DNA from: Larinioides sclopetarius
Lineage: Eukaryota
Direction: 5' to 3'
DNA: 64,000 bases
Assembly: GCA_964023285.1 (NCBI GenBank)
Contig: CAXIEN010000093.1
Span: 2,503,739 to 2,567,738, forward strand
Position 1 is the stretch's first letter, and the number at the start of each line of letters is the position of its first letter. The position numbers and the translations under genes are program-made. Positions 7,847 to 63,555 of this stretch are shown here, one piece after another. The notes below the pieces were generated by a model, which saw only the letters and a program-made list of their open reading frames with translations, was not told where the DNA came from and made no database searches.

Positions 7847-9148
7847 CAAGGGTTGGAACTTTAATAATGTCAACTATTTATTTACATCTAATACAAAAGT
7901 GATACATGTCAGCAAGTCTTACAGTCCTTCAATATAGTTGCCAGCAATGTGTACAACCCGTTTCCAATGATGTGGAAGTCGTAGGACACCTATAGCAGTG
8001 CCTGTTCTGTTGATAATTTAAATGGAGCAGTCTACTGCTGCAAAAGTCACTGGAACCATTCTGAAGCGAATGCCATGAAGTGGTTCTTTCATCTTAGAAA
8101 TTAAGGCAAAGTCACAAGGGCTTAGATATGGGGAGTTTGGTGGATATACAGCATTTCCCAGCCCCATCGATCAAGTAAATCAGCCACAGCTTGTACTGCA
8201 TGTGGCTGAGCATTGTAATGCCAAATGATAAGAGCCTTCTGTAGAAGGTGTCGCCGATTTTTTCTCAAAGCTGGTCTGAGATGGTGTTCCAAAAATGAGC
8301 AGTAATACTGCACATTGATGGTCTGCTGTGGGGGAACGGTATGCGTTTGGATGACACCATCCCAGTCATACATGAGAATCACCATAACTTTCACATTGCT
8401 GGGGTTTTGACAAAGTTTCGAACTTCCTGGTGACCCGTAATGATGCCCTTCTTCAATTGGCGTTTCAGTTCAGCCTGGTACAAATCTCGCCCAGAGTAAT
8501 GTTTCAGCATAAGAAAGCCTCTCCTTCGCTCTCATAGCCCTGCAAGTGGGTTCGAGCAGCATTGTATTGTTGCCATTTCTGTCAAATTATGCGGAACCCA
8601 TCTTGAAGCAATTTTTCTAATGCCCAGGCTTCTTCAGAATGTGGAGCACACAGTCGAATGTGCAAATCCTGCCTGTCAGGACAGCTCACGAATCGTTTGG
8701 CGACGATCACTGCCCATTAGTGCGGCAACAGCATTCACTCCCGCTCTGCTAATACTAAGATGACCTGGCCAATGCATATCTGCTACATTTTGGCTTCCTT
8801 CGTTAAAGGCCTTTACCCATCTTACCACTGTTCTGTAAGGTAATGCAGATTCCCCGCAAGCCTCTTGAAGACCTTGATGATACTGTCATGCTGTACGACC
8901 TGTGACACATTTAATCTTTACCCAACTCCATTATTCTTCTTTGGAAAACATTGTGACAACACTTACTTTAGACCACAGGCTATTACAAGGCTCAGTGCTT
9001 CGCTTCACTCTGCATGCTCATGACATAGGAGAAGGGCGAGTTTTTTTTTGCTGAGAGTTAAGGTAGTAACTAACGTGGGGTATATGTGACATTCTTTGGT
9101 TTTGAGGTGTGGTGTGCAGTGTTGCCACTATTAAAGTTCCAACCCTCA
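7847..9148 (-). mobile_element. mariner-like element of about 1.3 kb, with terminal inverted repeats and TA target-site duplication; the transposase is degenerate
   Basis: Termini are 'CAAGGGTTGGAACTTTAATA…' at 7847 and '…TATTAAAGTTCCAACCCTCA' at 9148, inverted relative to each other, with TA at 7845-7846 and 9149-9150. The minus-strand ORF 8122-8394 encodes 'LIIWHYNAQPHAVQAVADLLDRWGWEMLYIHQTPHI', which matches the mariner C-terminal 'ILHDNARPH…LGWEVL.HPPY'. The remaining frames are disrupted. Confidence 0.85.
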
Positions 9149-24057: not shown

Positions 24058-24445
24058 AGCACTGCAGTGGACTAGTGGCAAGATCTTGTTTTTGAAATTG
24101 AAGAAACTAGGTTTTGATTCCATCTGGTATGCAGGTCTAGTTCAGAAGAATGGGAACATTTTTTATCTGAAAGGCCTCATTAAATTTTGGCTGTAGGCAA
24201 AAGGCTGTATGAGCAGATTCTTATGGGTTATTGCTCTGTAATTATTATTATATTATAGATGCAATTATATCAAGTGCATGTTAAATCTGATATTGTAGAT
24301 AAAATCTCCTTTCTCTGGTGTGGTATGGATGTTTAGAGAGGGGTCTCTGCTCTCAAGTGTCATCCTGGTCATCTGACCATGGTTCAAAATCACTAGGCTT
24401 ATCTCAAAATAGCCCTTCTGTGGCGTAACAGGATGTTAATGTAGC
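24058..24445 (+). mobile_element. SINE copy with a tRNA-like head and a conserved central domain ('GTCATCTGACCATGGTTCAAAAT')
   Basis: The head 'GCAGTGGACTAGTGGCAAGATC…GGTTTTGATTCC' resembles the head of the SINE at 12590. The body/tail '…gagaggggtctctgctctcaagtgtcatcctggtcatctgaccatggttcaaaatcactaggcttatctcaaaatagccc…ggatgttaatgtagc' is collinear with the copies at 62990 and 63286. Confidence 0.55.
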
Positions 24446-29152: not shown

Positions 29153-29437
29153 AGAGCATTTTCATATTCCTTGGAAGGTCATAATAAAGGCATTACTTCT
29201 TGTTGTACTAGTCAAAATGGTGAAATTTTATCATGTTCTTTGGATGGTACTGTTAATTTATGGAAAATACCTGATGAAACAGAAGAATTTCATCCCGAAC
29301 ATTTAGCTAGCATAACTGATATTTGTTTATCTGTTACACAAAATAAAGTTGTCAGCTCAGATGCATATGGTAATGTTATTATTTGGAAATTGATCCTGTC
29401 GGCAGGTTCTCCTTTGATGTATGCAGGAAAGAAAACC
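29153..29437 (+). CDS. WD40-repeat protein gene exon (two WD repeats)
   Basis: Acceptor 'ttttttctatag' and donor 'gtgagt'. Encodes RAFSYSLEGHNKGITSCCTSQNGEILSCSLDGTVNLWKIPDETEEFHPEHLASITDICLSVTQNKVVSSDAYGNVIIWKL…KKT. This matches provided ORF 29171-29497. Confidence 0.8.
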
Positions 29438-29729
29438 GTGAGTATAAGGTTTTTATTTCATGATTTATTAATGACAAATTTTGTTAAGCATTATTAGTTT
29501 TCATTAAAGCTCAATTAAAATAGAAATTATGCTTTGCTGTTAAAAGCAGAAAATTATAGAAATAATTTCAATTGTCTTTAAAATATACAAAGAGTTTTTT
29601 CTATTAAAAATTTTTTCTATATATTGTATGTTGTTTTTTATTTAAAATTTGTCTTATGTTCTACATATAACACTTTTATTTAGATTACTGAAGTAGAGTT
29701 TTTCAGAGGTATAATGGAGCCAGAGCACT

Positions 29730-30075
29730 GTTCTGGCCCCAAGCAGCAAGAGTGGTCGCTAAATGATTGGCCAATGATCGCAATGCTCGGCTAAATCTCG
29801 CCCATATTTCCGAGAGGTCAATATTACGCCGGCGCGACATCGCCCTTTGACTATATTTTTTCCTCGCGCCTCTGATGATCGCCTTTTAATCTAGGCGAGC
29901 TCTGGCGGCGACTGTTTACACACGATCGCTTCAAGTAATCGCCCCAAGGCCGGCGCGATGTTCCAAAAGAATTACTCCCAGGTGGCGCTACGCCCAGATT
30001 CTGTAGCGCAGAAAAATGCGCAGGGGACTTGAACTGTTTTGGAATATCGCGCTGAATGCTTGAAAATACGTTGTT
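29730..30075 (+). repeat. CpG-rich island A with a palindromic double CCAAT box ('GATTGGCCAATGATCG'); inverted partner of 37440-37795
   Basis: 'ccccaagcagcaagagtggtcgctaaatgattggccaatgatcgcaatg…cgccggcgcgacatcgccc…gatgatcgcc…'. CpG content is far above the flanking DNA. Confidence 0.6.
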
Positions 30076-32960
30076 GACACTTAACCCTAATTTTTTATAT
30101 CGTTGTATTTTAGCTTAATTTAGGAGAAGAATCATGCTTTCACCTCCCAAGAAACATGTTTCAGAGATGAACCTTGCTTCCGAAAAGCAGAAGAAAGGTA
30201 TGTTCTGAGTTTATTCATTTTCAATCTTAGTCTAATTGTTTATATAGCTCGTTCTTGTATCAGTAAATTTCTTTCCTGCTCGCATTATGTTTTACAGAAG
30301 CGCCTAAGTTCATGCGTTCTGAGATATTTTGTATGGTCTGCTTATCCAGGCTATTTTAACAATAACACTTTTAATTTTATTTTTTATTGTTATGATAAGA
30401 TGAATTAGTTATTAGTTAAATTAGACCTTCTAGATGAATTACTTATTGCATTGTTACTTTTAAGATTAATTTATATAAAAAATTATGAACTTAACATGTT
30501 AAAAATATATCTCTTGTACCAAAATCATGCTTAACTGGTAAATGGTGGTAACCAATTTTGGTGATATTTTAAAGCTTTTAAGTCATACTAAGAGCTTTGA
30601 AACTTTCCATAAAAGATTTGAAACTTTTTGTTTGATTTTTCATTTTGAAATAGACATTTTATTTTACTGTCTTTTGAATATATCTAGAAGTTTGTTTGTG
30701 GAAAATCACATGCCTGCAATTCTCAATATCTCTTCCAACAAATTTTTAAACCTACTTTTTAATATTACATGAGAACCTAAATAGCCAAAAAATGCCCTCC
30801 CTTTAATTTTGTAATACAAAACAGAATGAGGCATTTCGTAATCTTTACTGTAATTTTTCCAATTTGATTGACCTTAGTCGTATTTCAAATTTTAATTGGC
30901 TAGTATTAAAATCTTTTTAATAGAAATATCACCTGCCTTTTTATATTTAGATTGAAATGTTTGGTCCTTCAAATCTGAATTAAATTAAATAATTTTATTT
31001 TATTCTGATTTTCTTAAAATTTTATAATTGAAACAAAATAATAAAACCACATGTCCAAAACTGAAACACATGATTAGCTAATCATAAAAATAATTATTTT
31101 TGATATGAAATCAAAATAAAAAGAAAGTTTATCTCATAAACCTTAGAATAAACAGTTTTAGAATAAACAATTCTGAAAGCTTGATAAAAAGAATTTAAAA
31201 AAAAAAACCTACAAAACTTTGCTTCTTAACGAAGCCCATTAGCAGTTGTGAGCAAATAATGCATCATCATGTATGTAGTTTTTTTATGTCACTTGCTTGA
31301 AAATATTGACCAAATCAGATTGAAAATTGTAAAATTTAGTTTATTTAAAGTTTTGGAATGCATGTTATTGGTTAATAGATATAATATGACCAAAACTGGA
31401 TCATTATCTAAATCTAAACACAAATTAGAAATGTCCAATTCTAAAATATATATATATAGTAAAATCATTTAATGCTACCTTAAATAAAAAAAAGCTAAAG
31501 AGTATAATATAATTTGTTGCTGATAAAAAATTGCATTAAATTTAAAATCTTTAGTAATCCCATATGTTTAATTGATATTTTTTTTCTTTTGAGGCAAAAA
31601 GGATGAAACAATGGCTTTCCCGCCAGTGAACCTCATGAACCACCTGGTTGGAGGAACCTCATGAACCCTAGTTGATGGAGAACTGTGTCAAATAATCCTT
31701 TTAGCAGATAAAGATTTCCTGGTGATTGATATTCACATGTCCACCATCATTATAGTGCGCCCAGAAGCAGAAAGCGTGCTGCAGATATGATCATTAATCA
31801 ACATACAACTTACAGACTAAAAAAATGTATACATTCTAATTTTGAAACTATTTCTCAGAGGAAGGAAACAGAAATCTTGAGGAACTGACATTCCATTGAG
31901 AGATTTATAAATTGTGAAGATGATTTAAGATGGTAATTGCTTGGCTCTAATAATTTTATTGTGGAAACAATTTTCTTATAGATTTTACAAAATGGTAAAA
32001 CCTTCAAAGAAAATGATGTATAGCAAGATATTTAGAGATGCAAGATGTGAAGTTAAAAAACATGCAATCAAATAAACACAATAACATGTTTTGTAGCATG
32101 CATAATATTATGTGTGATATTAGAATTAAAAATCATTCACCTTATCTGTATTTTTCATATATACTTTCTGTGTTACTGAAAGAAATAGCAATATTTATTA
32201 GAAGTCCTTATATCTGCCTGTGATAACAGTTGTTTACAAAATGACATAAAACCATTTTAACAGATATATTGTAGGATTGAGAATTCCAATTTTTGATATT
32301 AATAAAATTTTCTTCATTCTAATTATCTGAAATGTCTCTTTTAAAAATGCTGTTGCTTCTAAAGTAATTAGTAGTTATTATAAATCATTAAGATAGATGT
32401 TTGCCCTAGTTTCACTAAATTCTAAAGTAAATAATTTTAAAAGATTAAAATGTATTTGTTACTTTTGTTTACTTTCAGATATATTACTTTTTTCTTAGAT
32501 TGTATTAATTGCAAGTTTTAAATTGTATAAATATTTATTCATTGTCTAGATGGATTGACACTGTTTGTCATATATTTTTAAATATTCATTTTGCTTTAAA
32601 ATGACATCAGTTAACTATGATACTAAATTTGACTCTGCATTGTTGAGAATAGCAGATAAATTTTAAATTCATAAACTGATGCTGCAGAATGATTTAGAAG
32701 AATCTGTTACTGCGGCAGCTTATGTAAGAGTCTGCATTCCAAAAAAAAAATCAGAAGATCTCTCGAGGACTCTGAATGTTAAATATATGCCAAGAATTTA
32801 GCAAATGTCATATTTATATATATCATGTAAAGAGTTTGCAAAATAAAAAAATGCATTGCAATTTTCTTCACAACTCTTTGTAAATTATGTGAAATTTTCA
32901 ACTATATTTTTAAAACACGAGATATGAAAAGGTTAGTTTGAAGAAATTATATATAATAGG

Positions 32961-32980
32961 ATATATATATATATATATAT
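32961..32980. repeat. (AT)n microsatellite
   Basis: atatatatatatatatatat. Confidence 0.9.
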
Positions 32981-35900
32981 CTACTATTTTTTATACTGAC
33001 AGATTTGAAGGAAGTTGATTTTTTTTATGCAGTGAACATTTAAGTAAACTTTGGGAATGAATTCTATAATTTTCAAATATAAAGCAAATATGTCAGTTTT
33101 TTTTTCATTATTTTGATACACAATGATTTTGAATATATTGTTGAAATGCTTTAAATATTGCCACTTCATATTTAACTTTTATTGTACTTTCATAACGGAT
33201 TGCTATCAATTTTTTTAGGAATGACCTCCCTTCTAAAATTATTAATAGAATTATTCAATATAGTAATAGCCAAAATTCTATATTCCAATTTTTTTCCGAA
33301 CTTGGTGTTTATCATGGTTTTACATTTAATATGGTATTTAATAGTTTTGTTTAATATAAATACACAGACTACTTGTGATAAACTAGTTTAGATTGTATAA
33401 AAAAATCTGTTTAGTTTTGCTGTTGACATTTAATTTCAATTGTGTTTTTATAATTTTAAGCACTGAATTTGCATAATTTAAAATAGTATTAATAATTTTT
33501 TTGCATTTGTTCCTGAACATTGTATTAATTTTTTGCTATGCTTTTGACATCAAGAATTTTATTTTGACATTGAATATCTCATCGTAACAGTATTTACTCT
33601 TTAATTGACCTTCGTTTATTTGCTTTGATATATATTTGGAAAAATTTTATTCCTTGAAGCCAGAGTAGGACATTTTCTTTTGTAATTAAGAATATTATCA
33701 ATTGTATCATTATAGATTTTTTTAAAAATATGGCTTTCATGATGTCTGAATAACTGTGAAAGAATATTATCAAAAATGTTTTTTAAACCCTATCCTTCCA
33801 TTCATCAATTCTTCATAAATGCCTTTTTTGTTTGTCAAAATATTTTTGGTTACTAATGATAATTTATACTTCCAACATGCAATTGGTTTGATAAATATCT
33901 CCTCTTTCAAGATGAAATAGTCTAAAAAATTTGGAAACATCCTGTTTAATTAAACTATCTACTACTGAGGAAAATAAACAATAACGAAATAAATATTATA
34001 GAACTAAGAAAGATAATGATATGCCTTTATTTTAAATGTTATGTTAAGATGGAGATTTATCGGGAATATTGTTAATAACAAATCATGTAAAATGCAGGGG
34101 TGTGGAATATGTCTGATCTGGCGATCTAGGATCGAGTGAAATTTTAGTCATTTTGGGAAATTTTGCCCCAAAATTACTAATTATTTTACACATGAATTAT
34201 AAAATTTCCCCAGGTAGAAACATTTTCCTGATAGTAAAATGATACATATGACAAATTTCTTAAAATCAATCTCAGAATAATATGCTTATTGTGTAGTAAT
34301 GTTTTCATCCTTCTTAAAGCAATATTTTCATTTTTTCCACTGATTAGCGATTTGCTTTTGTTTGTGTAACTGTTAACTATTATGTAAACATTGCTCATTT
34401 AAAAAAAAAGTCATTCCCCAAGTAAAAGAAAACATTGAAAGAAGTGAGTGTTTCAAACTCACAAGAAGAAAAATTAAAAAATCTTTTTGCTCAGTGATTA
34501 TTATACAAAATAAAAATAAGTAAGTGGACCAATAATTACAAACTTAAAGAGATGGTGCTTCAGCAGTAAACTCATTTTGAGTCCCCTGTAGGAATTCTAA
34601 TGTCTTTATTCTCTCCCGATTCTCTTTAGAAAGGGAATCAAATCAAGATCCCACATCACAATTGCTGGGAAATACATTATAAATTTGCATTGAATGGTTG
34701 AGAAAAACTCAAAAGAGTTTAAATTTAATAATGATGTCTTCTTAATCAGAGGACAACATTGAAGAAAAACATTCTAAAAATTGAAATTAGTACAGCAAAT
34801 CATGAACTCCAAAAAGAGACCATCACTTCTAGAACAAGACAGCAGTAATAAAAAAAGGAAGCCTTTACCAACTCTCGTGTACCAGAAATAGTTTACCTCC
34901 TTGAAAACTGAGTGAAAATTTGCAGTGAGTGGTTTGTGAATTTGTTGGCTGTTATTGGAAATCACTTAGAAAGAACAATAAAATCTGATTTGTCATGAAT
35001 TATGTAATGGAATAGATCTTTAGTGTATAAAACTACATAATTATTAAAAGCATTCTTAAACAGACATTTGCAGAACAGAAATTATCATTTCACTAGATTT
35101 TCTTCAAGAAACAGACTCTTATTTTACAAAACATCAAATGTGATTGACAACATCCACAAAGACAGTAGGAAAAAAAGATTGCAGTTTCTCAATAATTAAT
35201 AATTTATCAGAAAAGGTAATCCTAAACCTTAGAATTTTTGGTTTAAAAAGAACTACATTTATTAATAAATTAGTCATAACAATTATATTTAACCTTACAA
35301 ATACCTTAGGCATGCTGCAAGTTCAGTCTATAGATTTTTAAGATATGATTTGTATAATGTAGAATTTTCTATCTTCGGTAATACAGAATTTATGTTAGCC
35401 TATAACATATCATAAAACATAGGAGAAATTTTTGTTTGGTTTGGGGGAAATGGTAGTAGTAAACATTTTCTGCACCCCTGGGTAAAAAAAATTGTTTGAT
35501 TAAAAAAAATATTAACAGTTCGCCAATATATTTCATTCTCATATTATATATAAAAAAATTCTTTTAAATTGTCTGTGAAAGCTTTTTTTTCAGTTTAAGC
35601 TTGGTGTATATTTCTATTTGATAAGCACTGAGATTTTAATTTTTGTATGTCACATAGATATGTAAATTCTGCAGCTATGTAAATATTCCTTATTTAACTT
35701 GCACTGATTTCAATGCACAAAACTTATCCTACAATTCAATAATGTACTTTATTGCCAGATTAGTTGTAATGAAACTGCTATATTTCAGTTCCTTTTCATG
35801 TTAATTACATGTTCCTTTTTTTAAATGTGTTTATGTATTTTCATCAGCATCTATATATTTTTCTCCAGATTTTTGCTTGCTTCTTATTCTAAATAAATTT

Positions 35901-37439
35901 TTCTGAAAGTTTCAGCAAATTGTTTGAAAATTATTTTGTATCGAAAATGAAAAAGTGCTTAAAATTATTGAACTAATTAAAAATATTTATGTTTAAAGTT
36001 TTTACTAAATACAAAAAAAGAAAAAAATCTGACTGATTTTATTGTCAAAGAATTTTTAGACCTGAGACTTATATTAAACAATCAGGTCTTATTAGCAAAA
36101 TATTATTTTCTGCATTATTTATTAAAAAATGAGAAACCACTAATAACGAGTGAAGTAATTTTAAATGTGAAAACTTCAAACGAGTAGAAACACTTGAATC
36201 TTTATAAATATTGTAAAGTATGTTTATGTTTATTGACTGTGTGTGATGATATCTATTCTTAAAACTCGTAGATTTGGAATATTGCTTGGGTATATAAGTC
36301 ATTACAGAAAATTCGGTCGAAAGTTAGAAGCAAATTATTGTCATACTTAAAGCTTGTAAAATATTTTTTAATGAAAGTCATAATAAGTGAATGTTTTGCT
36401 CAATTGGTTTTTCCAGTACACAAAAAATAAAGAGGGGAAATATTTATCTATTACAACAGAAAATGTAATTCCTGTTATACATGAGTATAAAACTTCTGTA
36501 AAATATGAAGTAACTTTATAAATTAATAATAAACAGAAAGAATATTTAGGAATAATTTTAAAAAATGTTTTATTTTATGTGTATAAAATATTTATGAAAC
36601 AAATTTTTGAAATATTCAAAGAGTGAATCATATATCAAGAAAATATTAGAAATTTGATGTAAATTATTTATTTGTTAAAAGTAAAAGAAACAAAGAAAAT
36701 TAAAATAAAAATTTCGTTTATTTAATCTAGGTTTTTCAAAATTGATTATTGCTGAAATTTTTAAGCATTATAAAATATATAGTAAAGAAAAAAAAATATA
36801 TTTTTTAAGAGTTTATATATATTTTTGAATTTTCATGAAACAACTTAAAATTAACAGATGATGTAGGCAATATTAGACATTTAAAAGTTGATTGATTATA
36901 TATATCAGTAAAATTATACTGATGAATTACGAAAAAAACTACACACTATTAATGTGGACACAATAAATGTGTTCCACATTTTTATTTCCACGCATTAAAT
37001 AATGACGAAATATTATATAAAGGAAATGAATCCTATGTATATATATGTACAGAAGATGAGATTTAAATTATTATAAGATTATTTGAACAGTTGTTTATTG
37101 CTCTTAAAGAGCACTAAAAAAATTCCATTTTAGCATTTAAAAATTGTTTTGAGTAAGAATATGGTAAAATATACGCAATAATAATAGTTAAAAAAATTTG
37201 TAAAAAGTTAAAATGAAGATCATGAAAAAGCCATTCTATTAAAACAAGTTCTTTACCGAGTTTTGAATTTATCAAAATAAATAAAAAGATTTAATAAGTA
37301 AAAAAGATAAATCATGTCAACTATCTAGTTTCTTTTAACCGTAATGCAAAATTTGAAAAATAGAATAGTTTGAAATATTGTAACAATAGTTTATAGAGTT
37401 AAAAAGACAACAACTGAATAACCAATAAACTAATATTTC

Positions 37440-37795
37440 AGTATGATGCCGGCAAGTGTTTCGTAACAAATTGTTTTATTGGCTCGCCCATTGATAAAAT
37501 ACATGGGTAATTGATTGGCAACGGGTCGTCCGTTGTCGTAATACACGTCGCAAAATGCTTGGTATCAAGTCGCCCGCGATAATACGCATCGGGAAATGGT
37601 CGGAAAAACTGTCGGAAACAAGCCGCGGCGATCATCGCCCGGCGTTCTGCCGGGGGACAGAACCAATATCGGGACGACGTCGCAGGCGAGGTCGCCCCGA
37701 CCTACCGAGTCATGTAGGGCGATGTTTGGCCAATGATTGGCCAACGATCTTTTGCTGCTTGGGCGCACTGCTTATGCCCTATGAGAAATAAACGA
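37440..37795 (-). repeat. CpG-rich island B, inverted relative to A, with shared motifs
   Basis: The reverse complement reads 'gcgcccaagcagcaaaagatcgttggccaatcattggccaaacatcgccc…gatgatcgccgcggc…', sharing 'cccaagcagcaa.ag', 'attggccaa', 'atcgccc' and 'gatgatcgcc' with island A. Several ATTGG boxes are present. Confidence 0.55.
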
Positions 37796-38005
37796 GAACA
37801 TTTTTTTTTATATTTGTCTTTAAACCAACAGCTTAACAATATGATTGGTATTTCAGATCAATATACCTTTGCCTTCCGGCTTTACCAACTGGGATTTTTT
37901 TGATACTTTGATTGTTAAATGTACCATTCTGCCTCATTTTATAAAATAATATGATGTATTTTATAGAGTGGTTTTTTATGCTTATGAAGTATGTTAATGT
38001 TTCAG

Positions 38006-38160
38006 TATACTGGAGGATTTGTCAAAGCTCTGTCATTGCTGCAGGACAGGAAACTTGTTTGTGCAGTCACACAGACAACAGATGGTGACGATAAGCATTT
38101 TATCGATGTTTTATATTATGATTGCTCTGCATCTGATAAGAATTCTATCTACAACTTCCA
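38006..38160 (+). CDS. WD40-repeat protein gene exon
   Basis: Acceptor 'gttaatgtttcag' and donor 'gtatgaac'. Encodes YTGGFVKALSLLQDRKLVCAVTQTTDGDDKHFIDVLYYDCSASDKNSIYNFQ, in the frame of ORF 37991-38191. It is in phase with exon 29153-29437. Confidence 0.65.
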
Positions 38161-54000: not shown

Positions 54001-54901
54001 TGTGAACTAAATATGTGTTAAAGACTAAGAAATTTAACTTTTAAGCTACTAAATAAAAGCTTCTCAAATGTGGTAATTTTTAAGAAAAGTTGATTGTTGT
54101 AATATTATCATAATGTAAATAGAAAATCAAAACTCATTAGAATCAATGATATAAACTAAATTTGTAATCAAATAGGATATTAGTTCAAACTTTTGACATT
54201 ATATATGCAATGCAAGTATCACTGGCATGTTATTAAATTGCAAATAATGAGCTAAAAATTGTGCAAAGGAATAACAAATTTAAAGTTTAAGTTAATACAT
54301 AAAAATTAGTTAGAAATTAATAATATGCCAATTGAATAAAAGACAAAAAGGTTTATATAAATAATTTTATTTATTTCCATGAAGTAAATAACAGTAGCAA
54401 ACAATACAATTATTCAGAATATCATACACAAAATTTAAAACTATAAAAAAAATACACATTTCATGTCAAATATATTTTTTTTCTTATTTTAAGATTACAA
54501 AGGTGAACAATTTCACTAACCTTTAAAAATTGAACCTATACTTTAAAACTATACTTTGGAAGTGTATAATTCAATTATTTAAAATATAATTTTTTTTCAC
54601 CCTTAATTTAGTTTTGTTTGTTTCCCCTTAAACATTTACATATTTCTTTTTTGAAAACTGTAATACCAAGCATTTTTTTCTGTCAATTTATTAGTTTTCT
54701 TACTAGATTTCTTTTCCTCAGATAAAGAATTCTTAAAAAGTGTTCTTTGTTTTCTTTAATTCTTAGAATCTACAGTTATATCATTTTCACTTAACAATAT
54801 AGTTATTTAATAAACTATTTGTTGCTGACCTTAGAATGATTAAAGACAAATATCATGCCCATTCACACAAACATTAAAAGAAAGGAAAACATCTTTTGTT
54901 A

Positions 54902-57900
54902 CACTGTTAAAACTGAAGGTGACAAACCGGCACCTTTTGGTCACCTAGGGTGAAAAGGCAGTACCATTTGGAACCTTAGGGTGCTTTAGAGGCTTGGAAA
55001 TGTGGTTGGGGTGCTGCTTGGCACCCCACAGGGTGAAAGAAGCTAATAAGGGTGCATTTGACTTTATATTTGTAGAAATGTGGCACCTTACAGGGTGCCC
55101 AACTCCTTGCGCATGCGCTTTTATACGCACTGAGTAAAAGAACTCGTAACGAACACTCAAAAATTTCCGTATTCTCAGTGCTAAACGTCTTTTCAATGCC
55201 CGTTTTCCCCTTTTTACGAACTCATCCCTTCATTGCCGTAAGAAACGCTCGAGCAAGATGTACCGCTGAGACTTGCGCATGCGCGAAAAGCAAGCAACCG
55301 TCAGATGCAAAAAAGCAATGGCGTCGCGTTGTTTTGATGTGTTCTGTATGTTTTGCCTATTAACATTAACTTCGCTTACGAATTCGTTGTAGTTATTTTT
55401 AAATATAAAACATGTACAATGTTGACTTAATTAAGAGCAAGAGCAGCAAATTCGTTTTCTTTTCTGTTTTCATACGCCCAGATTTTAGCAGCAACACGAT
55501 CCGTATTTTCAACAAGAACTCGGATTGTGATCTTCGAAGAAAACCGGAATTAAGTAAGTACTTTTAACTAAATATTTACATTCTTTTCTGTGAATATGAT
55601 ATATAAATTGAAAGTTGAAATAGAGAATAATGTATATATATTCATTGTACTTGTAAATATAGAATAGTTGACTTCGGAAATTTATTAGCGTTGTTGCTAT
55701 ATTATTGCTTTTTGTATCCTCAGTGATTAAAAAAAAAGATAAGATGACTTGCAAAATGAGGTGCATACTGCATGAACTCCATTTTAGCAAAATTGAAATA
55801 TATTTAATTGATTAATTTGTAGCTAGAGGCAGTATGACATTGAGTCTTTTTTTTTAATATGAATCTTTACCCTTAACTCTAAAAAAAGTGACAATTTTTT
55901 TTAGTGAAATATTTCATTTATTGTTTAAAGAGTGTCTCAGACTTTAGACGATGGCTTCATTTTCACTAGTTAGATATTTTTTACCCTAAGCTAACAAAAA
56001 TCTGAATTTTAAACTTAATTGAGTTGTTCAGAAGTCATTGCAATTAAGAAAAAAAAAAAAAACTACAAATTGAGGAAATTCATGATTTTTCATAAAATAA
56101 TTTTTAACATTTTTGGTTTATGAATGGGATTAGTGAAGATATTCTTATACTAAAGCAATGAGTGTCTAATTTAATACCCGGAAATTATTATTAATCCCAT
56201 GGAATTTATAAAAAAAGCAGATAACATGAAAAATTAGATTTGTGCACTTTGGCTTGAATGACTCACTAGATGTGCATTTATTCTTACACTATTTATTTTA
56301 TTCAAATGAGTTTCAAGTTATAATCTCTGGATATATGAATAATTTTTATGAGAAACAGTATAAAAATGCCTCCTCTTATTATAAAATGTTCTTAGTTAAA
56401 ATTTTCCAATGTTACTCCCTGATGACAAATGCACCCCTTTTCAATATTTGCTATAATATATAAAAGTGGGCAGAGTATAGAAAGTCTTCTTAGGATTAAG
56501 ATTAATATGCTTTTACAGTATTTTTTTAAAACTACAATAAGAAACTTAGTTCTATTAATTCATTCAAATTCATTTGCTATAGTGAATATTTGACAGTTTT
56601 TATTTATATACCCTTTGGCAGATTTTTATTATGCTTTCTGTGACATTAATATTCATCAAAACCTCTCCAAAAAATGTTTAGTCCATTTATAAATTCTTAA
56701 TTTAACAATCTCGGTAATTCCTAAATAAAGTAAAATATCTCATTTAACAAATTCAGCTTTATTTAGTTTTTAAATAAAAGAATTAATTTAAGTATATGAA
56801 AAAGAAAACATATAACGATTTACTTAAAAAAATATAAAATGTTTAGCATGTATTATATTTTAACTATATTGTACCTTCGCGAAGAATGCTGAGCCAATTT
56901 GACAGATTTGCTGAGGTTTGCGGAAAAGCTCATAAATATCATTGATAGAGGAATAATTTTTACAAATGCTTGGCACTTCTGTATGTAAAAATATTTGAGA
57001 CAAAATATTTTAACCTCATTGTTTTGGCACAGAATAATGCCTCATGTGGGAAAAGTTATGCTAAAATAACTCCTTCATAGAGACCTTTGAAATTGCCATT
57101 ATAGATCAAATATACAAATGCATACTTGTCCAGTATCTTAGTGGAGGGAAGAAGTCAGCGTAACGTACATGGGGAGGATCGTTTTTGTTTGATCCTGAAT
57201 TGCCCTCAAATTAAAAAAATTCTTCGGAACGATCTCGACTTATTTACACAAATATGTCAATTCTCCAAAAAATATAATTTTTTTACTGAAGTGAAAATCA
57301 TTCTACAGGAAACTTGTGCTATTCTGTGGCATTGTTGCTGTGTCAACAATCTTCTGCCCCGGGATTAATATAATTATTCAATTTATTTGAAAATGTAAAA
57401 TTTTAAACTGTAACTGTAAACAGCAAATGAGATTTTCAGCTTCTGAATATTATCAATTTTATTTTATATAGTAAGGTAGGGCAGTAGTAAATTGATGTCG
57501 TTTGAATATGTTGTAGTTTTTTTTTACCTGTAAGATTCATACAAATAATTTTTTGGAATGCCTTATTTGTCGCTACTGTATAAATATGTTTTTATATTAA
57601 CAGAAAAACATCAGAATTGCCTAGATTTATCATAGTTCAAATGTCTTTTTTTATTTTTAGTTTGATATTTATCTGAGCCTGTATTATTATGATTTATCTT
57701 TCTGAGCCTGATGTAGTTTAGGAACATGTATTTCTTTTTTCTAGCTGACACATTTTGTCAAATTATGGTATAAATTATAATAAAAGTTAAAATAATTATT
57801 GAAATAAAAAAAAAATGTTTTTTTTTCAATTCTTTAAGTTTTTGATTATTGTATTTTTAATCCAAAGACTTCATGCGAAACAACGAGACGATTTAACGGA

Positions 57901-60900
57901 TAATATTAACTTGAATTATGATTATATTTTCTAAACAACAAAATAACATAATACGATGAGGGATATTGTAAACAAAATCATTAATTTATTAAAATATTTA
58001 TATTCTTAAAAGATAACATCATTTGATGTATGTTTCTTAGTCCTTTTTCTATGAGATTGGACTGCAGTTTTAGAAGATATATCTTCTAATCTAAATTTTA
58101 ACACTATGAAATCTTTTTAAGATGAAATGTTATTGGCTGCAATGGAAACAACTACTGGATATCAAGAAAAAAATGCCTGAATAGCAACTACATGAAGTAC
58201 AAAAATAATGGTATCTTTCAATTTTTATGTATAAAATTAAATCTTAGTAGAAACCAAGAGTTAATCCTAATAAATAAAAATGTTGTAATGAATATTGGTT
58301 TGGCTGATTACCGAATATTTTGCAGCCAAATATCTACTTTTCGAAAACATTTCTTTTTTTAATGGTAAATAATATATTTCTTAAATTTTAAATAAAAAAT
58401 TAATGATTTATTGGTTTTATTAAATATTAATGCCTTGGTTTATTTTGTATTTGTCACCTTAATTCTAAGAATAAGATATTGTTGCTTTCACAAATCTGAA
58501 TAAATTATATTTGGGTTAAAGTTCAGATAACGGTGCGTGGTTAATTCTAACCTATAAATAAGATGATTCTTTGACGCCAAGAATACGATAGATTGGCGAC
58601 GTGTAATCATTGTTTGGTATGCGCAGAAATGTCTTAAATTTTGTCAGGTTTGCGCAAGAAGACTTGGAATTCTGTTTCGCGTTCGTTGATTGCATTTCAT
58701 TTGTCATGTGACTTAAAGATGCATTCTGATTGGTCGAGTTCTTAGAATTTTCATTTTAAAACAATATCGTTTGCTTTTCAGAATTTGGAATTCGGGTTTT
58801 TAATTTTCGCCAGTTAATAGATGATTTAGTTTCGCTAAAGCAGAAAAGGTGAGTGAAACGTTAGTGTTTCAATTGATAATTTGTATTTTTAATTTCCTAA
58901 ACTTACCATTAACTAAGAGGTTTTCCAGTAACTAACTGAAAATGAATTTTAAAAAAGAACGAAGGATTCCATACGTTCACTTTATTAGCGAAGCTACGAT
59001 TGGCCCACTATGCTGAAAGCGAAGCCCCTGAAGTTTTTTTTAGTTCAAAAAAATTGCCCGGTACACGTTTGCAATGCCGCAGGCATTGCGTGCACAGCGG
59101 AAAAAAATTCATCATGTTTTAGAAATAATTGCGTTCTCAGAAGAGAGAAGAAAAAAACAATAACCAAAAAATCAGCGGAATTTGCGCGCGAGAAACGAAA
59201 AACAAATTCTACAATCGCATTCCACCGTCGCAAAGCTATCACTCTATTGGCGACATAAAGTTAGCGACCATTTTCGTAGAAGTAGCCGCGCACCGTTATC
59301 TGAACTTTTACCTATATTTGTATATACTTTTACCTATATTATATTAATTAGATATTTTTTAGATATTATATTTTTTAGAAAATATAACCTAGATATGATA
59401 GAATTTTGCTTGCCATTCTTTATATTTTTCATTTAAATATAAGAAATTTCCCCAATCAATGTCAAGTCATTTCCTTTAAAATATATATTAATTATTCTCC
59501 GTCACTTCTATTTGCCACCCAGTCAAATATATGTGCTTTATAATCACACCTACAGTTAAAAGGTTAAAAGTTATTTAACTTCATAATGCTTACTCTACTC
59601 TTAAAATTTAATGAATGTTAGATTTTTTATAAGTATATTGAAATGTAATTCTGTAATATAAATAAATTCTAACTCTTCTTAAGTGATTCTTTGTTAAATA
59701 TATATTTTATAAATATTATTCTAAATTTATTTGAATGAATATATCTTTAGCATTTGTCAAAATAGCTATTGTATATGCTATGTATTCTTGCTTGCATTAT
59801 AGGCTTTACAATCATAAGAAATACATAAAATTATTAAATTCATTTGTAGGCTATATATTTCATAGTTTTAAATATATATAAATTGTATAAAGCTATATCT
59901 ATGTAATTTAAAAGTGAGTAAATGATATTTTTTAGATGAAAAATGTAATAAAATATAATTCTGAAATATTTTTATCTTAAAAAATTACTATCTGGAAAAT
60001 ATACAGCCAAATATCTGCTGAGTATTTGGTTAGCCGAATATTTGGCAGAAAAACCAAATACTCGCTACATCCTTAATAAATATATATATTTATTTTAGTA
60101 AAAGTAGATTCATCGTGTTTTCTCACAAATTATTTAATGTCATGATGCATTGATTTAAATTGGAGGATATTTACAAATGTGTTAAATTGTTGTTATAAGT
60201 AAATATTTTGCTTTTTTAAAAAATTATCTTTTGTAGTTTAGCTTAAAATTTGTTTAGTGTTCTGTTAAAGTAATTAAATTGAATGCTGCATTTTAATAAT
60301 AACGACAAAATTATTGTAGCTTTATCATCTTAATATTATAAATAATTTCTTAATAATTCAAAAGGTTACTGGAATTTGTTTATAAAATTTTTTAAGTATC
60401 TAAAGTACTTTCTTATACATTTGTATTTATAGGGTGAATACCGGCCCAAACAGACGAGATCAGGCTTCAGCATTTTCTTGAAGAAAAAATCCTTCGGCAT
60501 CAAGAGGATATGTGGATATTTGTCATAATGTAAAGAACACAGACCATTCAATAAATATGTTGTATATATCTGTTTTGTCTTTATTGTGTTCACACCCATC
60601 TGGAATTTTTTTTAAAGAATTGATAAATTGATTTTCTAAATACTTTTATCTTTTGGAAGTGTTTCTGTTGCCTGAAAGAATAATATATTTTTTTTAATGC
60701 TTGACCTGTATCTATTTGGTAATACTATTGTGTGTGCCTGTATTTTATTTAAAAGTACCACAATCATTAAAATTATCTACTAACTTTTATTTTTATATTT
60801 AAAAGCTTAAAGATTAATTTGGTATTTAATTGTGTTGTATTTAGGTTAATGCATAAAATGAAATGTCAAAAATACAATTTATTTTTGTTTTAAAAAGTAC

Positions 60901-62068
60901 AAAATAAAAAAATTGTATTAACAAAATTTTAAATGTAATTCATCAGCAGTATTAATAAAAAAGTATTTTTTTCCTATTTCTGCCAGGAATTGACTGAGCA
61001 ATAATATAACTACACATTTATGATATTTAGTAACAGTATATTACAGAATTTATATCTGAAAAAGTATTCGTTTCTCTCGTCAATATTTCATTTATCTATA
61101 ATTTTAATTTATTATTTTAAATCAATCTTCTCATTTTTACATACACAAACTTTTTTCTAGCAGCAGTTTTATTGTGTGATGTGATGCAAGCAACTTAGTA
61201 TCGAACTTCAATAAAAAATGGCCAAGAAAATAATTGAACAGTGAAAAATTATTTAAAATAGATACCTTTAATTAATTTTATGTGTGAAGTTTAAAAATTT
61301 ATTAATATTTCTCAAATTCAATCAAAAGTATCCTTTATAACTTATTATTTTAAATACGTGCTTTTAAAAAACATTTTTGATAATTGCTTTAGTTCTTGAA
61401 AAATGATTAAAAAAATTAATATAATCATGAAAAGTTTATTCATAAAGAATAAATATATGCATTAATATTTTAGCGCGAGAAGGAATAAAGTGATCTAAAA
61501 GCAGAATAGGGTAAATTTTTTAGAGAATGGTGTTAAAAACATAATACCAAGATAAAAGGTAAGTAAATATTGAATGGAAATTTAAAAAAAAATATTTAAA
61601 AACCTTTTATTCATTTAAAATTTAATCTATTATATATACTGAAAGTAAAATGGGCAAATATATTATATCCTCTGCATCTTAGTTTTCTAGAAATATTGAA
61701 TATGCTTTTAAATAAAAGGCACTTGAATCTGAATTAAAAGATACAATGTGCCTCTTAATTTTCAAAGGCACAAAAATTCAAAATGTGCCTCTTATATCAG
61801 AGGCAGTTTTAAGAGTGTACATTGAGGGTGCTACTAGGCACCTTGAATTAAGGGTGCCGTCCTTTCACCTTTGTGGGGTGCCACTAAGCACCTTGAATTA
61901 AGGGTGCCGTCCTTTCACCTTTGTGGGGTGCCACTTAGCACCTTGAAGTAGGGTGCCAATCTTTCACCCTAGTTAAGGGTGCCAATTTTTCACCCTTAGG
62001 GGTGACGCTGGTGAGACAAGCTTTTCACCCCTTAAAGGTGCCAAATGTCACCTGTAGTTTTAACAGTG
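54902..62068. mobile_element. 7.2-kb element bounded by about 35-bp terminal inverted repeats with flanking TA duplications; putative non-autonomous DNA transposon with subterminal repeats
   Basis: Left end 'TA|CACTGTTAAAACTGAAGGTGACAAACCGGCACCTTT'. The right end, reverse-complemented, reads 'TA|CACTGTTAAAACTACAGGTGACATTTGGCACCTTT'. Both ends are followed by arrays of 'AGGGTGAAAG…GGCACCC' subterminal repeats, and the right side carries about 2.5 tandem 58-bp units at 61819-61990. No intact transposase ORF was found inside. Confidence 0.6.
58527..59300. repeat. Foldback: roughly 90-bp inverted repeats flanking about 600 bp of CpG-rich sequence, nested inside the 7.2-kb element
   Basis: 58527-58620 reads 'aagttcagataacggtgcgtggttaattctaacctataaataag…gacgccaagaatacgatagattggcgacgtg'. 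59215-59300 is its inverted partner ('…caccgtcgcaaagctatcactctattggcgac…cgcgcaccgttatctgaactttt'). The interior holds a TATAAATAA box at 58553, CCAAT/ATTGG boxes, and a 'aaaag|gtgagt' splice-donor-like site at 58848. Confidence 0.55.
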
Positions 62069-62989
62069 TACTAAAATATTTTTTCTACAAAATTAACAAC
62101 TTCGGAATGATGATTCAAAACTGGAATAAATTTATCCTCATATTTTTTGCTAATTAGCTTTTTTACTACTGTATATGTTTGGATAACAGTATTTACTACT
62201 ATTTTAATAGGATATAATATAAGCCCTCTATCATTTTAATCTATTAGTTTTCCATAAATCTTTTTCCCAATCTGAGCAATGTAATAAATACGAAAATGCA
62301 ATAAATCATTGTTTATACGATATTTGTTGCAAGGTCCCGCAATTCAACTTTCCACCAGGCCCCACTTTTTCTAAGACCTGCCATGGAGAACAGCTTTTAC
62401 GGATCATTCACGGACAATTCATAAGCGGTCTATGGTAAAGAAATCAGATAATTCTCGGACAACCCATAGACAGTCTATGGTAAAAACAGATAATTCTCGG
62501 ACAATCCATAGACGGTCTATGGTAAGGAGACCACTCATGATGTCAATCTAATGCTGAGGAATGGACTGTCGGCCTGTACCATGCAATATCGCTGTTTCAT
62601 TTCGAACCGCACAAAATGCTTTGACCCAACAAAAGGAAAACGCTCATTATCGCTGCAGACCTCACATAGTCTCTGAAATTATTTAGATTGACGTTTGCAA
62701 CAGGAAATTTCGATTTTAATCCACGACTGCTGATCAGTTGTGTAAATATGGCTTAGAGAGATAAAAATGGCACTCTGCGCTTTAACACTGTACAAAAACT
62801 TCCCTTCAAAATGGATCCACTGTTTTATACAATCTACGATTATAGGTTTATCGAACTAAAGCGCTTGAACAGAAAATACAAATCATTGAAAGTCGGACAA
62901 CAGTGGAGTTAATCTAACTTCCATTCACTGGTTATTCCAGTCTTGGTTTAATCAGTATAATAAACATTAAAATTTTTCGTTGAACACAC

Positions 62990-63285: not shown

Positions 63286-63555
63286 TATATTAACGTTCCG
63301 TTTTGTTGCAACACAAGGGCTATTTTTGGATGAAACTCGTAATATTGAACCATGGTTGGATGATGAGAATGACACCCGAGCTTGCACCCCTCTCTCCAAA
63401 TCTTCGGGCCACACCAATGGGAAGGCGTTTGGCCATTGTGTATTATTTAGCTTGCGATGAGCACCATACACGGCGGATCTTTGGCGGAATCAGGTTTCGA
63501 TCCTGAGGCCCTAGAGCCGAGACCATACTACTTAAGCCACCATGGTCAAGATCGC
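63286..63555 (-). mobile_element. Full-length tRNA-derived SINE (central-domain family), in head-to-head arrangement with the 62990 copy
   Basis: The minus strand reads 'gcgatcttgaccaTGGTGGCTTAAGTAGTATGGtctcggctctagggcctcaGGATCGAAACCtgattcc…ggggtgcaagctcgggtgtcattctcatcatccaaccatggttcaatatt…acgttaatataac'. The A-box and B-box motifs are in capitals. The ORFs on both strands at 63280-63657 are artefacts of this SINE. Confidence 0.65.

What the first reader, a model, noticed from the sequence alone, without database searches (positions are those of the whole stretch)
29730..37795. Two CpG-rich islands with palindromic CCAAT boxes in inverted orientation around a 7.4-kb intronic segment
The surrounding DNA is strongly CpG-depleted, yet both 29730-30075 and 37440-37795 are dense in CGs. 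They share 'CCCAAGCAGCAA', the 'ATTGGCCAAT' double CCAAT palindrome and 'GATGATCGCC', in opposite orientation. Both lie inside one intron of the WD40 gene, between exons 29153-29437 and 38006-38160. They could be long terminal inverted repeats of an old DNA transposon, paired promoters of intron-hosted transcripts, or unmethylated regulatory islands.
Basis: seen in the sequence. Interest (0 to 1): 0.6.

Follow-up and report, generated by a model that had tools for sequence, protein, structure and literature searches.

The report
Two CpG islands inside one intron
Two short CpG-rich patches in one intron of a WD40 gene have escaped the CpG loss seen all around them and share a mirrored ~50-base CCAAT-box module, so they are most likely unmethylated internal promoters, an ordinary kind of feature, not the long ends of a transposon.

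Summary
Segments 29738-30080 and 37438-37763 are the two most CpG-dense spots in the 64-kb window (GC 51-52%, CpG o/e 1.3-1.5). Surrounding DNA has 25-29% GC and CpG o/e 0.33-0.36. The islands share a block in mirror orientation at their outer edges: a perfect 12-mer, TTGGCCAA CCAAT palindromes and ATCGC (45 nt, 78% identity, E = 6e-4). Beyond about 50-59 nt they do not align better than shuffles. They still share a pair-specific excess of short words, notably ATCGC[CG].

A long-TIR transposon is not supported. There is no target-site duplication, no transposase remnant in any of six frames (positive controls worked) and no inverted duplication of the interior.

The interior and old transposon remnants are CpG-decayed, but the islands show no decay products. 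They have therefore been specifically protected from CpG loss. My best reading (about 0.5) is germline-unmethylated intragenic islands acting as CCAAT/NF-Y-type promoters, for nested transcripts or for truncated host isoforms. Direction of transcription is unresolved. Exapted ends of an ancient mobile element remain a rival (about 0.2).

Copy number, methylation and transcription could not be tested here. This is a known kind of feature and of modest interest.

The parts
29738..30080 (.). CpG island 1. GC 0.51, CpG o/e 1.32, TG/CA about 1.0. The outer (left) border is sharp and the inner shore is gradual. GC-rich sequence without CpG starts about 22 nt further out, at about 29715.
37438..37795 (.). 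CpG island 2. Over 37438-37763, GC is 0.53 and CpG o/e 1.49, with TG/CA about 1.0. The outer (right) border is sharp. The inner shore is gradual: o/e 1.07 at 37001-37500 and 0.82 at 36501-37000.
29738..29790 (+). Shared composite block, left copy. It contains the 12-mer CCCAAGCAGCAA (29738-29749), the twin CCAAT palindrome ATTGGCCAAT (29766-29775) and GATCGC (29776-29781).
37705..37763 (-). Shared composite block, right copy, in mirror orientation. It contains the 12-mer (37752-37763), two TTGGCCAA palindromes (37726-37733 and 37737-37744) and CATCGCC (37717-37723).
29839..30051 (+). Cluster of ATCGC[CG] words in island 1, at 29839, 29878, 29938 and 30046 on + and 29954 on -. Further ATCGC copies lie at 29777 and 29925. 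GATGATCGCC is at 29874-29883.
37575..37723 (-). ATCGC[CG] words in island 2, at 37575, 37627 and 37718 on - and 37634 on +. The palindrome GGCGATCATCGCC spans 37627-37639.
30134..30197 (+). Candidate first coding exon just inside island 1: MLSPPKKHVSEMNLASEKQKK followed by AAG|GTATGT (donor score 8.8; the host donors score 7.7 and 3.2). It ends in phase 1, so it is out of frame with host exon B. This is inferred only.
29958..29981 (+). Alternative candidate mini-exon inside island 1. ATG plus 24 nt, then CAG|GTGGCG (score 9.1). It ends in phase 0, in frame with host exon B. This is inferred only.
37555..37713 (+). Candidate + strand first exon inside island 2. ATG plus 53 codons, then CAT|GTAGGG (score 7.4). 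It ends in phase 0, in frame with host exon B at 38006. This is inferred only. The only strong donor on the - strand is at 37705 (TCG|GTAGGT, 8.2).
30081..37437 (.). Interior between the islands. GC 0.25, CpG o/e 0.34 and TG 1.31, so it is as decayed as the host introns. It has no ORF above 85 aa, no Pfam domain in six frames, no inverted duplication and no Rfam or tRNA hit. The AT skew is mirror-symmetric next to the islands.
29153..29437 (+). Host WD40 exon upstream of the intron. The donor is ACC|GTGAGT. The shared block starts 300 nt downstream of it.
38006..38160 (+). Host exon downstream of the intron. The acceptor is tttcag|TAT and the exon is in frame with exon A. The shared block ends 242 nt upstream of it.

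Best explanation
The two segments are intragenic ('orphan') CpG islands. They have been kept free of germline DNA methylation and so have escaped the CpG-to-TpG decay that affected the rest of the intron.

Each carries the same composite cis-element at its outer edge: a 12-mer, then palindromic twin CCAAT boxes with NF-Y-type flanks, then ATCGCC. More ATCGC[CG] words follow inside each island. Factors bound there would hold the region open and unmethylated and would place transcription initiation inside the island.

The islands therefore most likely act as internal promoters. They could drive intron-hosted transcripts running towards each other, or N-terminally truncated isoforms of the host WD40 gene.

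Shown here: the composition, the protection from decay, the shared block, the motif clustering, and the absence of transposon hallmarks.
Inferred: absence of methylation, factor binding, promoter activity and direction of transcription.
For: - These are the densest CpG spots in the window.
- CpG o/e is 1.32 and 1.49 with TG/CA about 1.0. The interior has CpG 0.34 and TG 1.31, and the host introns CpG 0.33-0.36.
- Old transposon remnants in the same window are decayed (piggyBac CpG 0.66, mariner 0.51). Repeats are therefore not spared from decay, and the islands need specific protection.
- The two arms of the block differ by 22%, so a very recent arrival of a once-identical pair is unlikely.
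- The shared block is significant and confined to the islands.
- The CCAAT pentamers have GGCCAATCA / GGCCAATGA flanks, read directly.
- CCAAT is enriched in island 2: 5 copies, p about 0.001.
- ATCGC is enriched per CpG: OR 5.3, p = 1e-4.
- The excess of shared 7-mers is specific to this pair: z = 3.2-3.5, the highest of 45 pairings of CpG-rich segments.
- Another CpG-rich patch at about 55.1-55.4 kb carries two GCGCATGCGC boxes, so motif-bearing CpG islands occur elsewhere in this genome.
- An ATG plus a strong donor follows island 1, and further donors lie inside both islands.
- Inner CpG 'shores' and mirrored AT skew fit inward transcription.
- Literature: orphan and intragenic CpG islands behave as promoters (PMC2944787, PMC8873577). 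NF-Y sits a median of 94 bp upstream of TSSs and maintains the nucleosome-depleted region (10.1101/369389).
Against: - No transcript, CAGE or methylation data were available.
- No protein-coding nested gene could be found: no Pfam domain and no convincing second exon.
- Island 2 has no ATG-plus-donor first exon on its inward strand.
- Several upstream ATGs precede the 30134 ATG (read).
- The strand skews inside the islands give no consistent direction.
- A perfect 12-mer at the very edge of both islands, in mirror orientation, is more typical of common descent (terminal repeats) than of independent promoters.
- CCAAT is not significantly enriched in island 1.
- Orphan CpG islands are documented mainly in vertebrates, whereas this genome is AT-rich and not vertebrate-like.
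Confidence: 0.5

Rival explanations
1. The islands are the two ends of an ancient mobile element of about 8 kb. It would be a class II transposon with a short terminal inverted repeat and subterminal repeats of a transposase-binding word (ATCGC[CG]) that inserted into a formerly ~540-nt intron. The ends have stayed unmethylated, possibly after being exapted as promoters, as in MuDR, whose TIRs drive convergent transcription (my own knowledge of the literature).
For: - There is a mirror-image terminal block with a 12/12 core at the outer edge of both islands.
- Homology limited to short termini, with different subterminal regions, is normal for TIR elements.
- Clustered ATCGC[CG] words show partly mirrored polarity: 6+/1- in island 1 and 1+/3- in island 2. 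This resembles the subterminal repeats of hAT and CACTA elements (my own knowledge).
- The block lies 300 and 242 nt from the flanking exons, so removing it leaves a short intron.
- The outer compositional borders are sharp.
- A genuine CpG-rich TIR element exists in the same window at 58514-59312.
Against: - No target-site duplication pairs with matching termini, although the 12-mer core is intact.
- GC-rich sequence continues 22-35 nt outside the repeat, so the repeat is not at the compositional boundary.
- There is no transposase remnant in six frames, with working positive controls.
- The interior is as CpG-decayed as the host intron, so the element cannot be young. Old transposons in this window have lost their CpGs. 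The ends would need extra protection anyway, which leads back to the unmethylated-island explanation.
- The polarity of ATCGC is weak, and shared words show no overall strand bias.
- No further copy exists in the 64 kb.
Confidence: 0.2
2. Coincidence. Two unrelated CpG-rich patches happen to share a few short GC-rich words and CCAAT-type palindromes.
For: - ATTGGCCAAT with one mismatch is at chance level.
- The islands do not align beyond about 50 nt.
- The apparent inner-edge block was chance.
- The pattern finds many unrelated hits in metagenomes.
Against: - The 12-mer occurs twice, while 0 of 100 shuffles gave two copies.
- The 45-nt alignment has E = 5.6e-4 against the whole window.
- All three TTGGCCAA octamers in the window fall in the two blocks.
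- The parts of the block come in the same order, and the block sits at the same (outer) edge of each of the two most CpG-dense segments of the window.
- The excess of shared 7-mers is specific to this pair.
Confidence: 0.1
3. RNA-level role. The two complementary blocks pair in the host pre-mRNA and loop out about 8 kb. This brings the 5' and 3' splice sites of the long intron within about 600 nt of each other.
For: The predicted duplex is -68.9 kcal/mol, against -31.8 +/- 4.6 for shuffles. The blocks lie 300 nt after the donor and 242 nt before the acceptor.
Against: - Any inverted repeat gives such a duplex.
- This does not explain 340-nt CpG-rich islands, the protection from decay, or the motif clusters.
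- The palindromic core would also fold locally.
Confidence: 0.07
4. Remnant of an old inverted segmental duplication: two tail-to-tail paralogous genes of which only the constrained promoter module is still recognisable.
For: The arrangement is mirrored, and the block has a conserved order of sub-elements.
Against: There is no protein-level or DNA-level similarity between the two halves of the interior (tblastx best E = 0.29; blastn finds only AT-rich low-complexity matches). Coding exons should outlast promoters.
Confidence: 0.08

Closest known systems
Intragenic / orphan CpG islands acting as unannotated or alternative promoters (Illingworth et al. 2010, PMC2944787; review PMC8873577)
   Same: Short GC- and CpG-rich patches inside a CpG-depleted gene body, remote from the annotated promoter, with promoter-type motifs and possible first exons next to them.
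   Different: These are described mainly in vertebrates. Here the genome has about 29% GC and is probably an invertebrate. The islands are small (about 340 nt) and come as a mirrored pair sharing a ~50-nt block. Methylation state and initiation were not measured.
NF-Y-dependent CCAAT promoters (NF-Y a median of 94 bp upstream of the TSS, maintains the nucleosome-depleted region; 10.1101/369389)
   Same: CCAAT pentamers with the preferred flanks (GGCCAATCA, GGCCAATGA) on both strands. Island 2 carries several CCAAT boxes.
   Different: The CCAAT boxes overlap as a palindrome (ATTGGCCAAT / TTGGCCAA repeated twice), so both cannot be occupied at once. No TSS is known. NFI half-sites (TTGGC/GCCAA) fit the same sequence. 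Binding was not tested.
TIR DNA transposons with short terminal repeats and subterminal repeated words (hAT such as Ac, CACTA), and MuDR, whose TIRs carry convergent promoters (own knowledge of the literature)
   Same: A short inverted terminal block, differing subterminal regions rich in a repeated CpG-containing word, and a possible inward-facing promoter at each end.
   Different: There is no target-site duplication, no transposase, no other copy in the window and a CpG-decayed interior. The repeat is not at the exact compositional boundary.
The 799-bp TIR element in the same window (58514-59312)
   Same: It is CpG-rich (o/e 1.57) against the same depleted background.
   Different: It has all the hallmarks the island pair lacks: ~100-nt TIRs, a flush 8-bp duplication (TATATTTG) and CpG richness along its whole length.

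Membership tests
Class II (TIR) DNA transposon | Terminal inverted repeats at the exact ends of the inserted segment | tested here: inconclusive
   An inverted block is present: 12/12 core and 45 nt at 78% identity. GC-rich sequence continues 22-35 nt outside it, and the similarity does not extend outward.
Class II (TIR) DNA transposon | Target-site duplication flanking the termini | tested here: not met
   A scan of all left and right end combinations found no flush direct repeat paired with matching termini. The GCACTG 6-mer is not flush on the left.
Class II (TIR) DNA transposon | Transposase gene or remnant (autonomous copy) | tested here: not met
   There were 0 Pfam families in six stop-masked frames of 29400-38100. 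The same method finds piggyBac (3.7e-13) and mariner (4.2e-5) remnants elsewhere. A non-autonomous element would not need a transposase.
Class II (TIR) DNA transposon | Multiple copies in the genome | not testable with these tools
   The assembly is not available. There is no further copy in the 64-kb window. Metagenome and viral hits are chance matches.
CpG island / non-methylated island promoter | Local CpG o/e and G+C far above a CpG-depleted background over at least 200 nt | tested here: met
   CpG o/e is 1.32 and 1.49 and GC 0.51 and 0.53 over 343 and 326 nt. The background has CpG o/e 0.33-0.36 and GC 0.25-0.29.
CpG island / non-methylated island promoter | Long-term absence of germline methylation | tested here: inconclusive
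   This was tested only indirectly. There is no TpG/CpA excess in the islands, while the interior and old transposons are decayed. No bisulfite data were available.
CpG island / non-methylated island promoter | Transcription initiation within the island | not testable with these tools
   Only sequence-level candidates exist: ATG 30134 plus a donor scoring 8.8, and donors at 29982, 37705 and 37714.
NF-Y CCAAT promoter | CCAAT pentamer with favourable flanks | tested here: met
   GGCCAATGA and GGCCAATCA are present in both blocks. The flank consensus is from my own knowledge. Enrichment is significant in island 2 (5 copies, p about 0.001) but not in island 1.
NF-Y CCAAT promoter | Position about 60-100 bp upstream of a TSS, and NF-Y occupancy | not testable with these tools
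   No TSS or ChIP data were available. The reference distance is 94 bp (10.1101/369389).
Inverted segmental duplication (paralogous gene pair) | Collinear similarity of the duplicated bodies | tested here: not met
   The islands do not align beyond about 50 nt. The halves of the interior are unrelated by tblastx and blastn.
Known structured RNA genes (Rfam, tRNA) | Match to a covariance model | tested here: not met
   There were no Rfam hits at gathering score in the window, none at E <= 1 in 29400-38100, and no tRNA.

The most novel reading that the evidence does not exclude
The pair is a purpose-built or domesticated boundary module. Two mirror-image copies of a composite element (12-mer, twin CCAAT palindrome, ATCGCC iterons) would have derived from the ends of an ancient mobile element. 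They would now mark both borders of an intron-embedded unit, keep themselves unmethylated inside a methylated gene body, and drive convergent transcription. Alternatively, or in addition, they could pair in the pre-mRNA to loop out 8 kb. This would be a recurring class of intragenic element in an AT-rich invertebrate genome.
Probability: 0.12. Interest if true: 0.55.

Novelty: new member of a known kind. Interest (0 to 1): 0.3.

Why it matters
If they are real promoters, the islands would mark unannotated transcription units (nested RNAs or truncated WD40 isoforms) inside a gene. They would also show that small, factor-protected, unmethylated islands exist within heavily CpG-decayed gene bodies of an AT-rich genome. 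The shared 12-mer / CCAAT / ATCGCC module would be a candidate cis-regulatory signature to search for genome-wide. If they turn out to be transposon ends, they would be an example of terminal sequences that resist methylation long after the element has died. In either case the finding mainly helps annotation. It does not open a new question.

Tried and rejected
- Long TIRs. Global and local alignments of the islands beyond the first ~50 nt were no better than dinucleotide shuffles or than unrelated CpG-rich segments.
- A second conserved block at the inner edges (GTTGTTGAC...TAACCCTA) scored below the shuffles.
- Outward extension of the repeat and a target-site duplication: none found.
- Islands as two halves of a small element split by a later insertion: no TSD or TIR at the inner junctions.
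- Inverted duplication of a gene pair: tblastx and blastn of the two halves of the interior were negative.
- Hidden exons or transposase: six-frame Pfam gave 0 hits, with positive controls.
- Structured RNAs: Rfam at gathering score and at E <= 1, and tRNA scan, found nothing.
- Finding the source genome or relatives:
  - The host exons gave no homologue.
  - One search was rejected because the query was too short (9 aa).
  - One search was wasted on a wrong-frame query through my own error.
  - Exact-ORF look-ups were not on record.
  - Scans for the composite pattern gave 82 metagenome loci and 3 viral loci, with no similarity beyond the pattern.
- Literature searches for the exact motifs returned only primers and unrelated constructs.
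- A two-exon model joining 30134-30197 to 34790-34891 is in frame, but its acceptor is poor. I did not pursue it.
- Strand skews inside the islands gave no direction of transcription.
- My impression that some repeat-derived peptides look arthropod-like is recall only and was not tested.


Full report
CONTEXT

The window is an AT-rich eukaryotic sequence (29% GC) with methylation-type dinucleotide bias: CG 0.58, TG 1.18 and CA 1.14 of expectation. It carries a + strand gene with a WD40 exon at 29153-29437 (Pfam WD40, E = 3e-13). A following exon at 38006-38160 has good splice signals and is in frame with it. The window also holds decayed piggyBac-like (1530-2780) and mariner-like (8125-8885) transposase remnants. 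The source organism could not be identified. The host exons have no relative in the protein collection and exact-ORF look-ups failed. One search was rejected because the query was too short. One search was my own wrong-frame mistake and cost one search.

Largely yes. In 300-nt windows, the two segments hold the highest CpG counts of the 64 kb, at 27 and 32.

Outside them the intron is strongly depleted. CpG o/e is 0.34 in the interior and 0.00-0.25 in the short intron flanks. It is 0.33-0.36 in the neighbouring host sequence on either side.

CCCAAGCAGCAA occurs only twice in the window, once on each strand, and no shuffle out of 100 gives two copies. GATGATCGCC is also shared.

Three details need correcting:
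- The exact ATTGGCCAAT is present only in island 1. Island 2 has two one-mismatch versions 11 nt apart, and that decamer alone is at chance level. However, all three TTGGCCAA octamers of the window lie in the two blocks.
- The CCAAT sub-block is palindromic and matches 17/18 in direct orientation.
- In island 2, GATGATCGCC is part of a palindrome.

The mirror orientation therefore rests on the 12-mer and on the fact that the block sits at the outer edge of each island.

HOW FAR DOES THE SIMILARITY GO?

The best local alignment of island 1 against the reverse complement of island 2 covers 45 nt at 78% identity. It scores 38 against 19.8 +/- 1.9 for shuffles, and blastn gives E = 5.6e-4 against the whole window. 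With gaps it reaches about 59 nt inward. It starts exactly at CCCAAG and does not extend outward.

The remaining ~290 nt of each island do not align. The global score was 0.0 against 3.8 +/- 2.1 for shuffles. Local gapped scores were reached by 95 of 400 shuffles and matched by unrelated CpG-rich segments. A tempting second block at the inner edges scored below the shuffles. The islands are therefore not long terminal inverted repeats.

A SHARED VOCABULARY WITHOUT COLLINEARITY

After removing the 48-nt block, the islands still share 52 canonical 6-mers (shuffles 34 +/- 6) and 25 7-mers (10.7 +/- 3.9). None of 300 shuffles reached either value.

In a matrix of ten CpG-rich segments from the window, this pair has the highest z-score (3.2-3.5) of 45 pairings. 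The main recurring word is ATCGC[CG]. Nine of its 21 copies in the window fall in the 1.05% of sequence occupied by the islands. Counted per CpG, it is still enriched (11/62 against 29/739, OR 5.3, p = 1e-4). Its polarity is partly mirrored (6+/1- and 1+/3-), but shared words overall show no strand bias. CCAAT is enriched in island 2 (5 copies, p about 0.001) but not significantly in island 1.

TESTS OF THE TRANSPOSON READING

- No flush direct repeat pairs with matching termini at any combination of ends.
- GC-rich sequence runs 22-35 nt beyond the repeat on both sides.
- The interior has no ORF above 85 aa.
- The interior has no Pfam domain in any of six stop-masked frames. The same procedure recovers the decayed piggyBac (E = 3.7e-13) and mariner (E = 4.2e-5) copies.
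- The two halves of the interior are unrelated, so there is no inverted gene duplication.
- The inner junctions show no sign of a secondary insertion into a small element.

The window also contains a textbook case for comparison. Segment 58514-59312 is a 799-bp element with ~100-nt TIRs, a flush 8-bp duplication (TATATTTG) and CpG o/e 1.57. The island pair lacks these hallmarks. A non-autonomous, very old element cannot be excluded. The geometry even hints at an insertion, since the block lies 300 nt after the donor and 242 nt before the acceptor.

THE DECISIVE COMPOSITIONAL ARGUMENT

| Segment | CpG o/e | TG o/e | CA o/e |
|---|---|---|---|
| Island 1 | 1.32 | 1.06 | 0.82 |
| Island 2 | 1.49 | 1.04 | 0.98 |
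| Interior 30200-37400 | 0.34 | 1.31 | 1.14 |
| piggyBac remnant | 0.66 | 1.18 | 1.20 |
| mariner remnant | 0.51 | 1.42 | 1.38 |
| Young TIR element 58514-59312 | 1.57 | 0.93 | 1.00 |

In this genome, sequence that sits in a gene body or in an old repeat loses its CpGs. The 8-kb interval is old: its interior is decayed and the arms of the block differ by 22%. Yet both ends are undecayed. Whatever their origin, the islands have been specifically protected, which is the definition of non-methylated islands. The borders support this. They are sharp on the outside, next to the shared block, and show a gradual CpG shore on the inside.

LIKELY MECHANISM

The block carries CCAAT pentamers with the flanks NF-Y prefers (GGCCAATCA and GGCCAATGA, read; the flank consensus is from my own knowledge). 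NF-Y sits a median of 94 bp upstream of TSSs and keeps promoters nucleosome-free (10.1101/369389). Orphan and intragenic CpG islands generally behave as promoters (PMC2944787 and PMC8873577).

Island 1 is followed by ATG 30134 and a strong donor at 30198 (score 8.8, against 7.7 and 3.2 for the host donors). Other candidates are:
- 29958-29981 with donor 9.1, in phase with host exon B
- 37555-37713 on the + strand with donor 7.4, also in phase with exon B
- a - strand donor at 37705

AT skew next to the islands is mirror-symmetric, which fits inward transcription. The skews inside the islands are not informative.

I therefore commit to factor-protected, unmethylated internal promoters at a confidence of 0.5. 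I leave open whether they drive convergent nested transcripts or truncated host isoforms.

RIVALS

- Ends of an ancient mobile element, possibly exapted: 0.2.
- Coincidence: 0.1.
- Remnant of an inverted duplication: 0.08.
- RNA bridge across the intron: 0.07. The predicted duplex is -68.9 kcal/mol against -31.8 +/- 4.6 for shuffles, but any inverted repeat would give this.

No Rfam family or tRNA matches. Public metagenome and viral scans for the composite pattern returned only chance matches. The literature holds nothing on the exact motifs.

VERDICT

The long-TIR reading is rejected. Copy number in the assembly, methylation and transcription start data would settle the remainder.

Noticed in passing
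window 58514-59312: A complete 799-bp non-autonomous DNA transposon. Its ~100-nt terminal inverted repeats begin GGTTAAAGTTCAGATAACGGTGCG, and it has a flush 8-bp target-site duplication (TATATTTG). It is CpG-rich (o/e 1.57, no TG/CA excess), so it is probably a young insertion.
   Followed up: yes
window 55090-55385: A third CpG-rich patch (CpG o/e 1.53) carries two identical CTTGCGCATGCGC boxes 166 bp apart, with GCGCATGCGC at 55109 and 55275. These are NRF1-like palindromes (identification from my own knowledge). It is probably an ordinary promoter and shares no vocabulary with the two islands.
   Followed up: partly
window 1530-2780 (+): A frameshifted piggyBac-like transposase remnant (Pfam DDE_Tnp_1_7, E = 3.7e-13 on the stop-masked frame). 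It is CpG-decayed (o/e 0.66).
   Followed up: partly
window 8125-8885 (-): A mariner-like transposase remnant (Pfam Transposase_1, with weak HTH_48 and other HTH hits). It is GC-rich (0.47) but CpG-decayed (o/e 0.51, TG 1.42).
   Followed up: partly
window 24357-24424 and 63308-63375: Two inverted copies of a repeat (78% over 68 nt). Their translations contain LNHG.M.RMT... peptides that remind me of repeat-derived ORFs in arthropod genomes. That is recall only and was not tested.
   Followed up: partly
window 54885-54937 and 62034-62085: Another dispersed repeat (81% over 53 nt, inverted), made of GGTGCC/GGCACC-rich units. It lies just left of the 55-kb CpG patch.
   Followed up: no
window 31590-31800 (+): A GC bump inside the interval whose frames read ...FPASEPHEPPGW.. 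and ..NLMNHLVGG... This is faintly reminiscent of the Tc1/mariner WPA.SPDLNP motif, but there was no Pfam hit, so it may be nothing.
   Followed up: partly
window 29716-29732: A small near-palindrome, CCAGAGCACTGTTCTGG, lies immediately outside the left shared block. GCACTG recurs directly at 37765-37770, just outside the right block. It is not flush enough to be a target-site duplication.
   Followed up: yes
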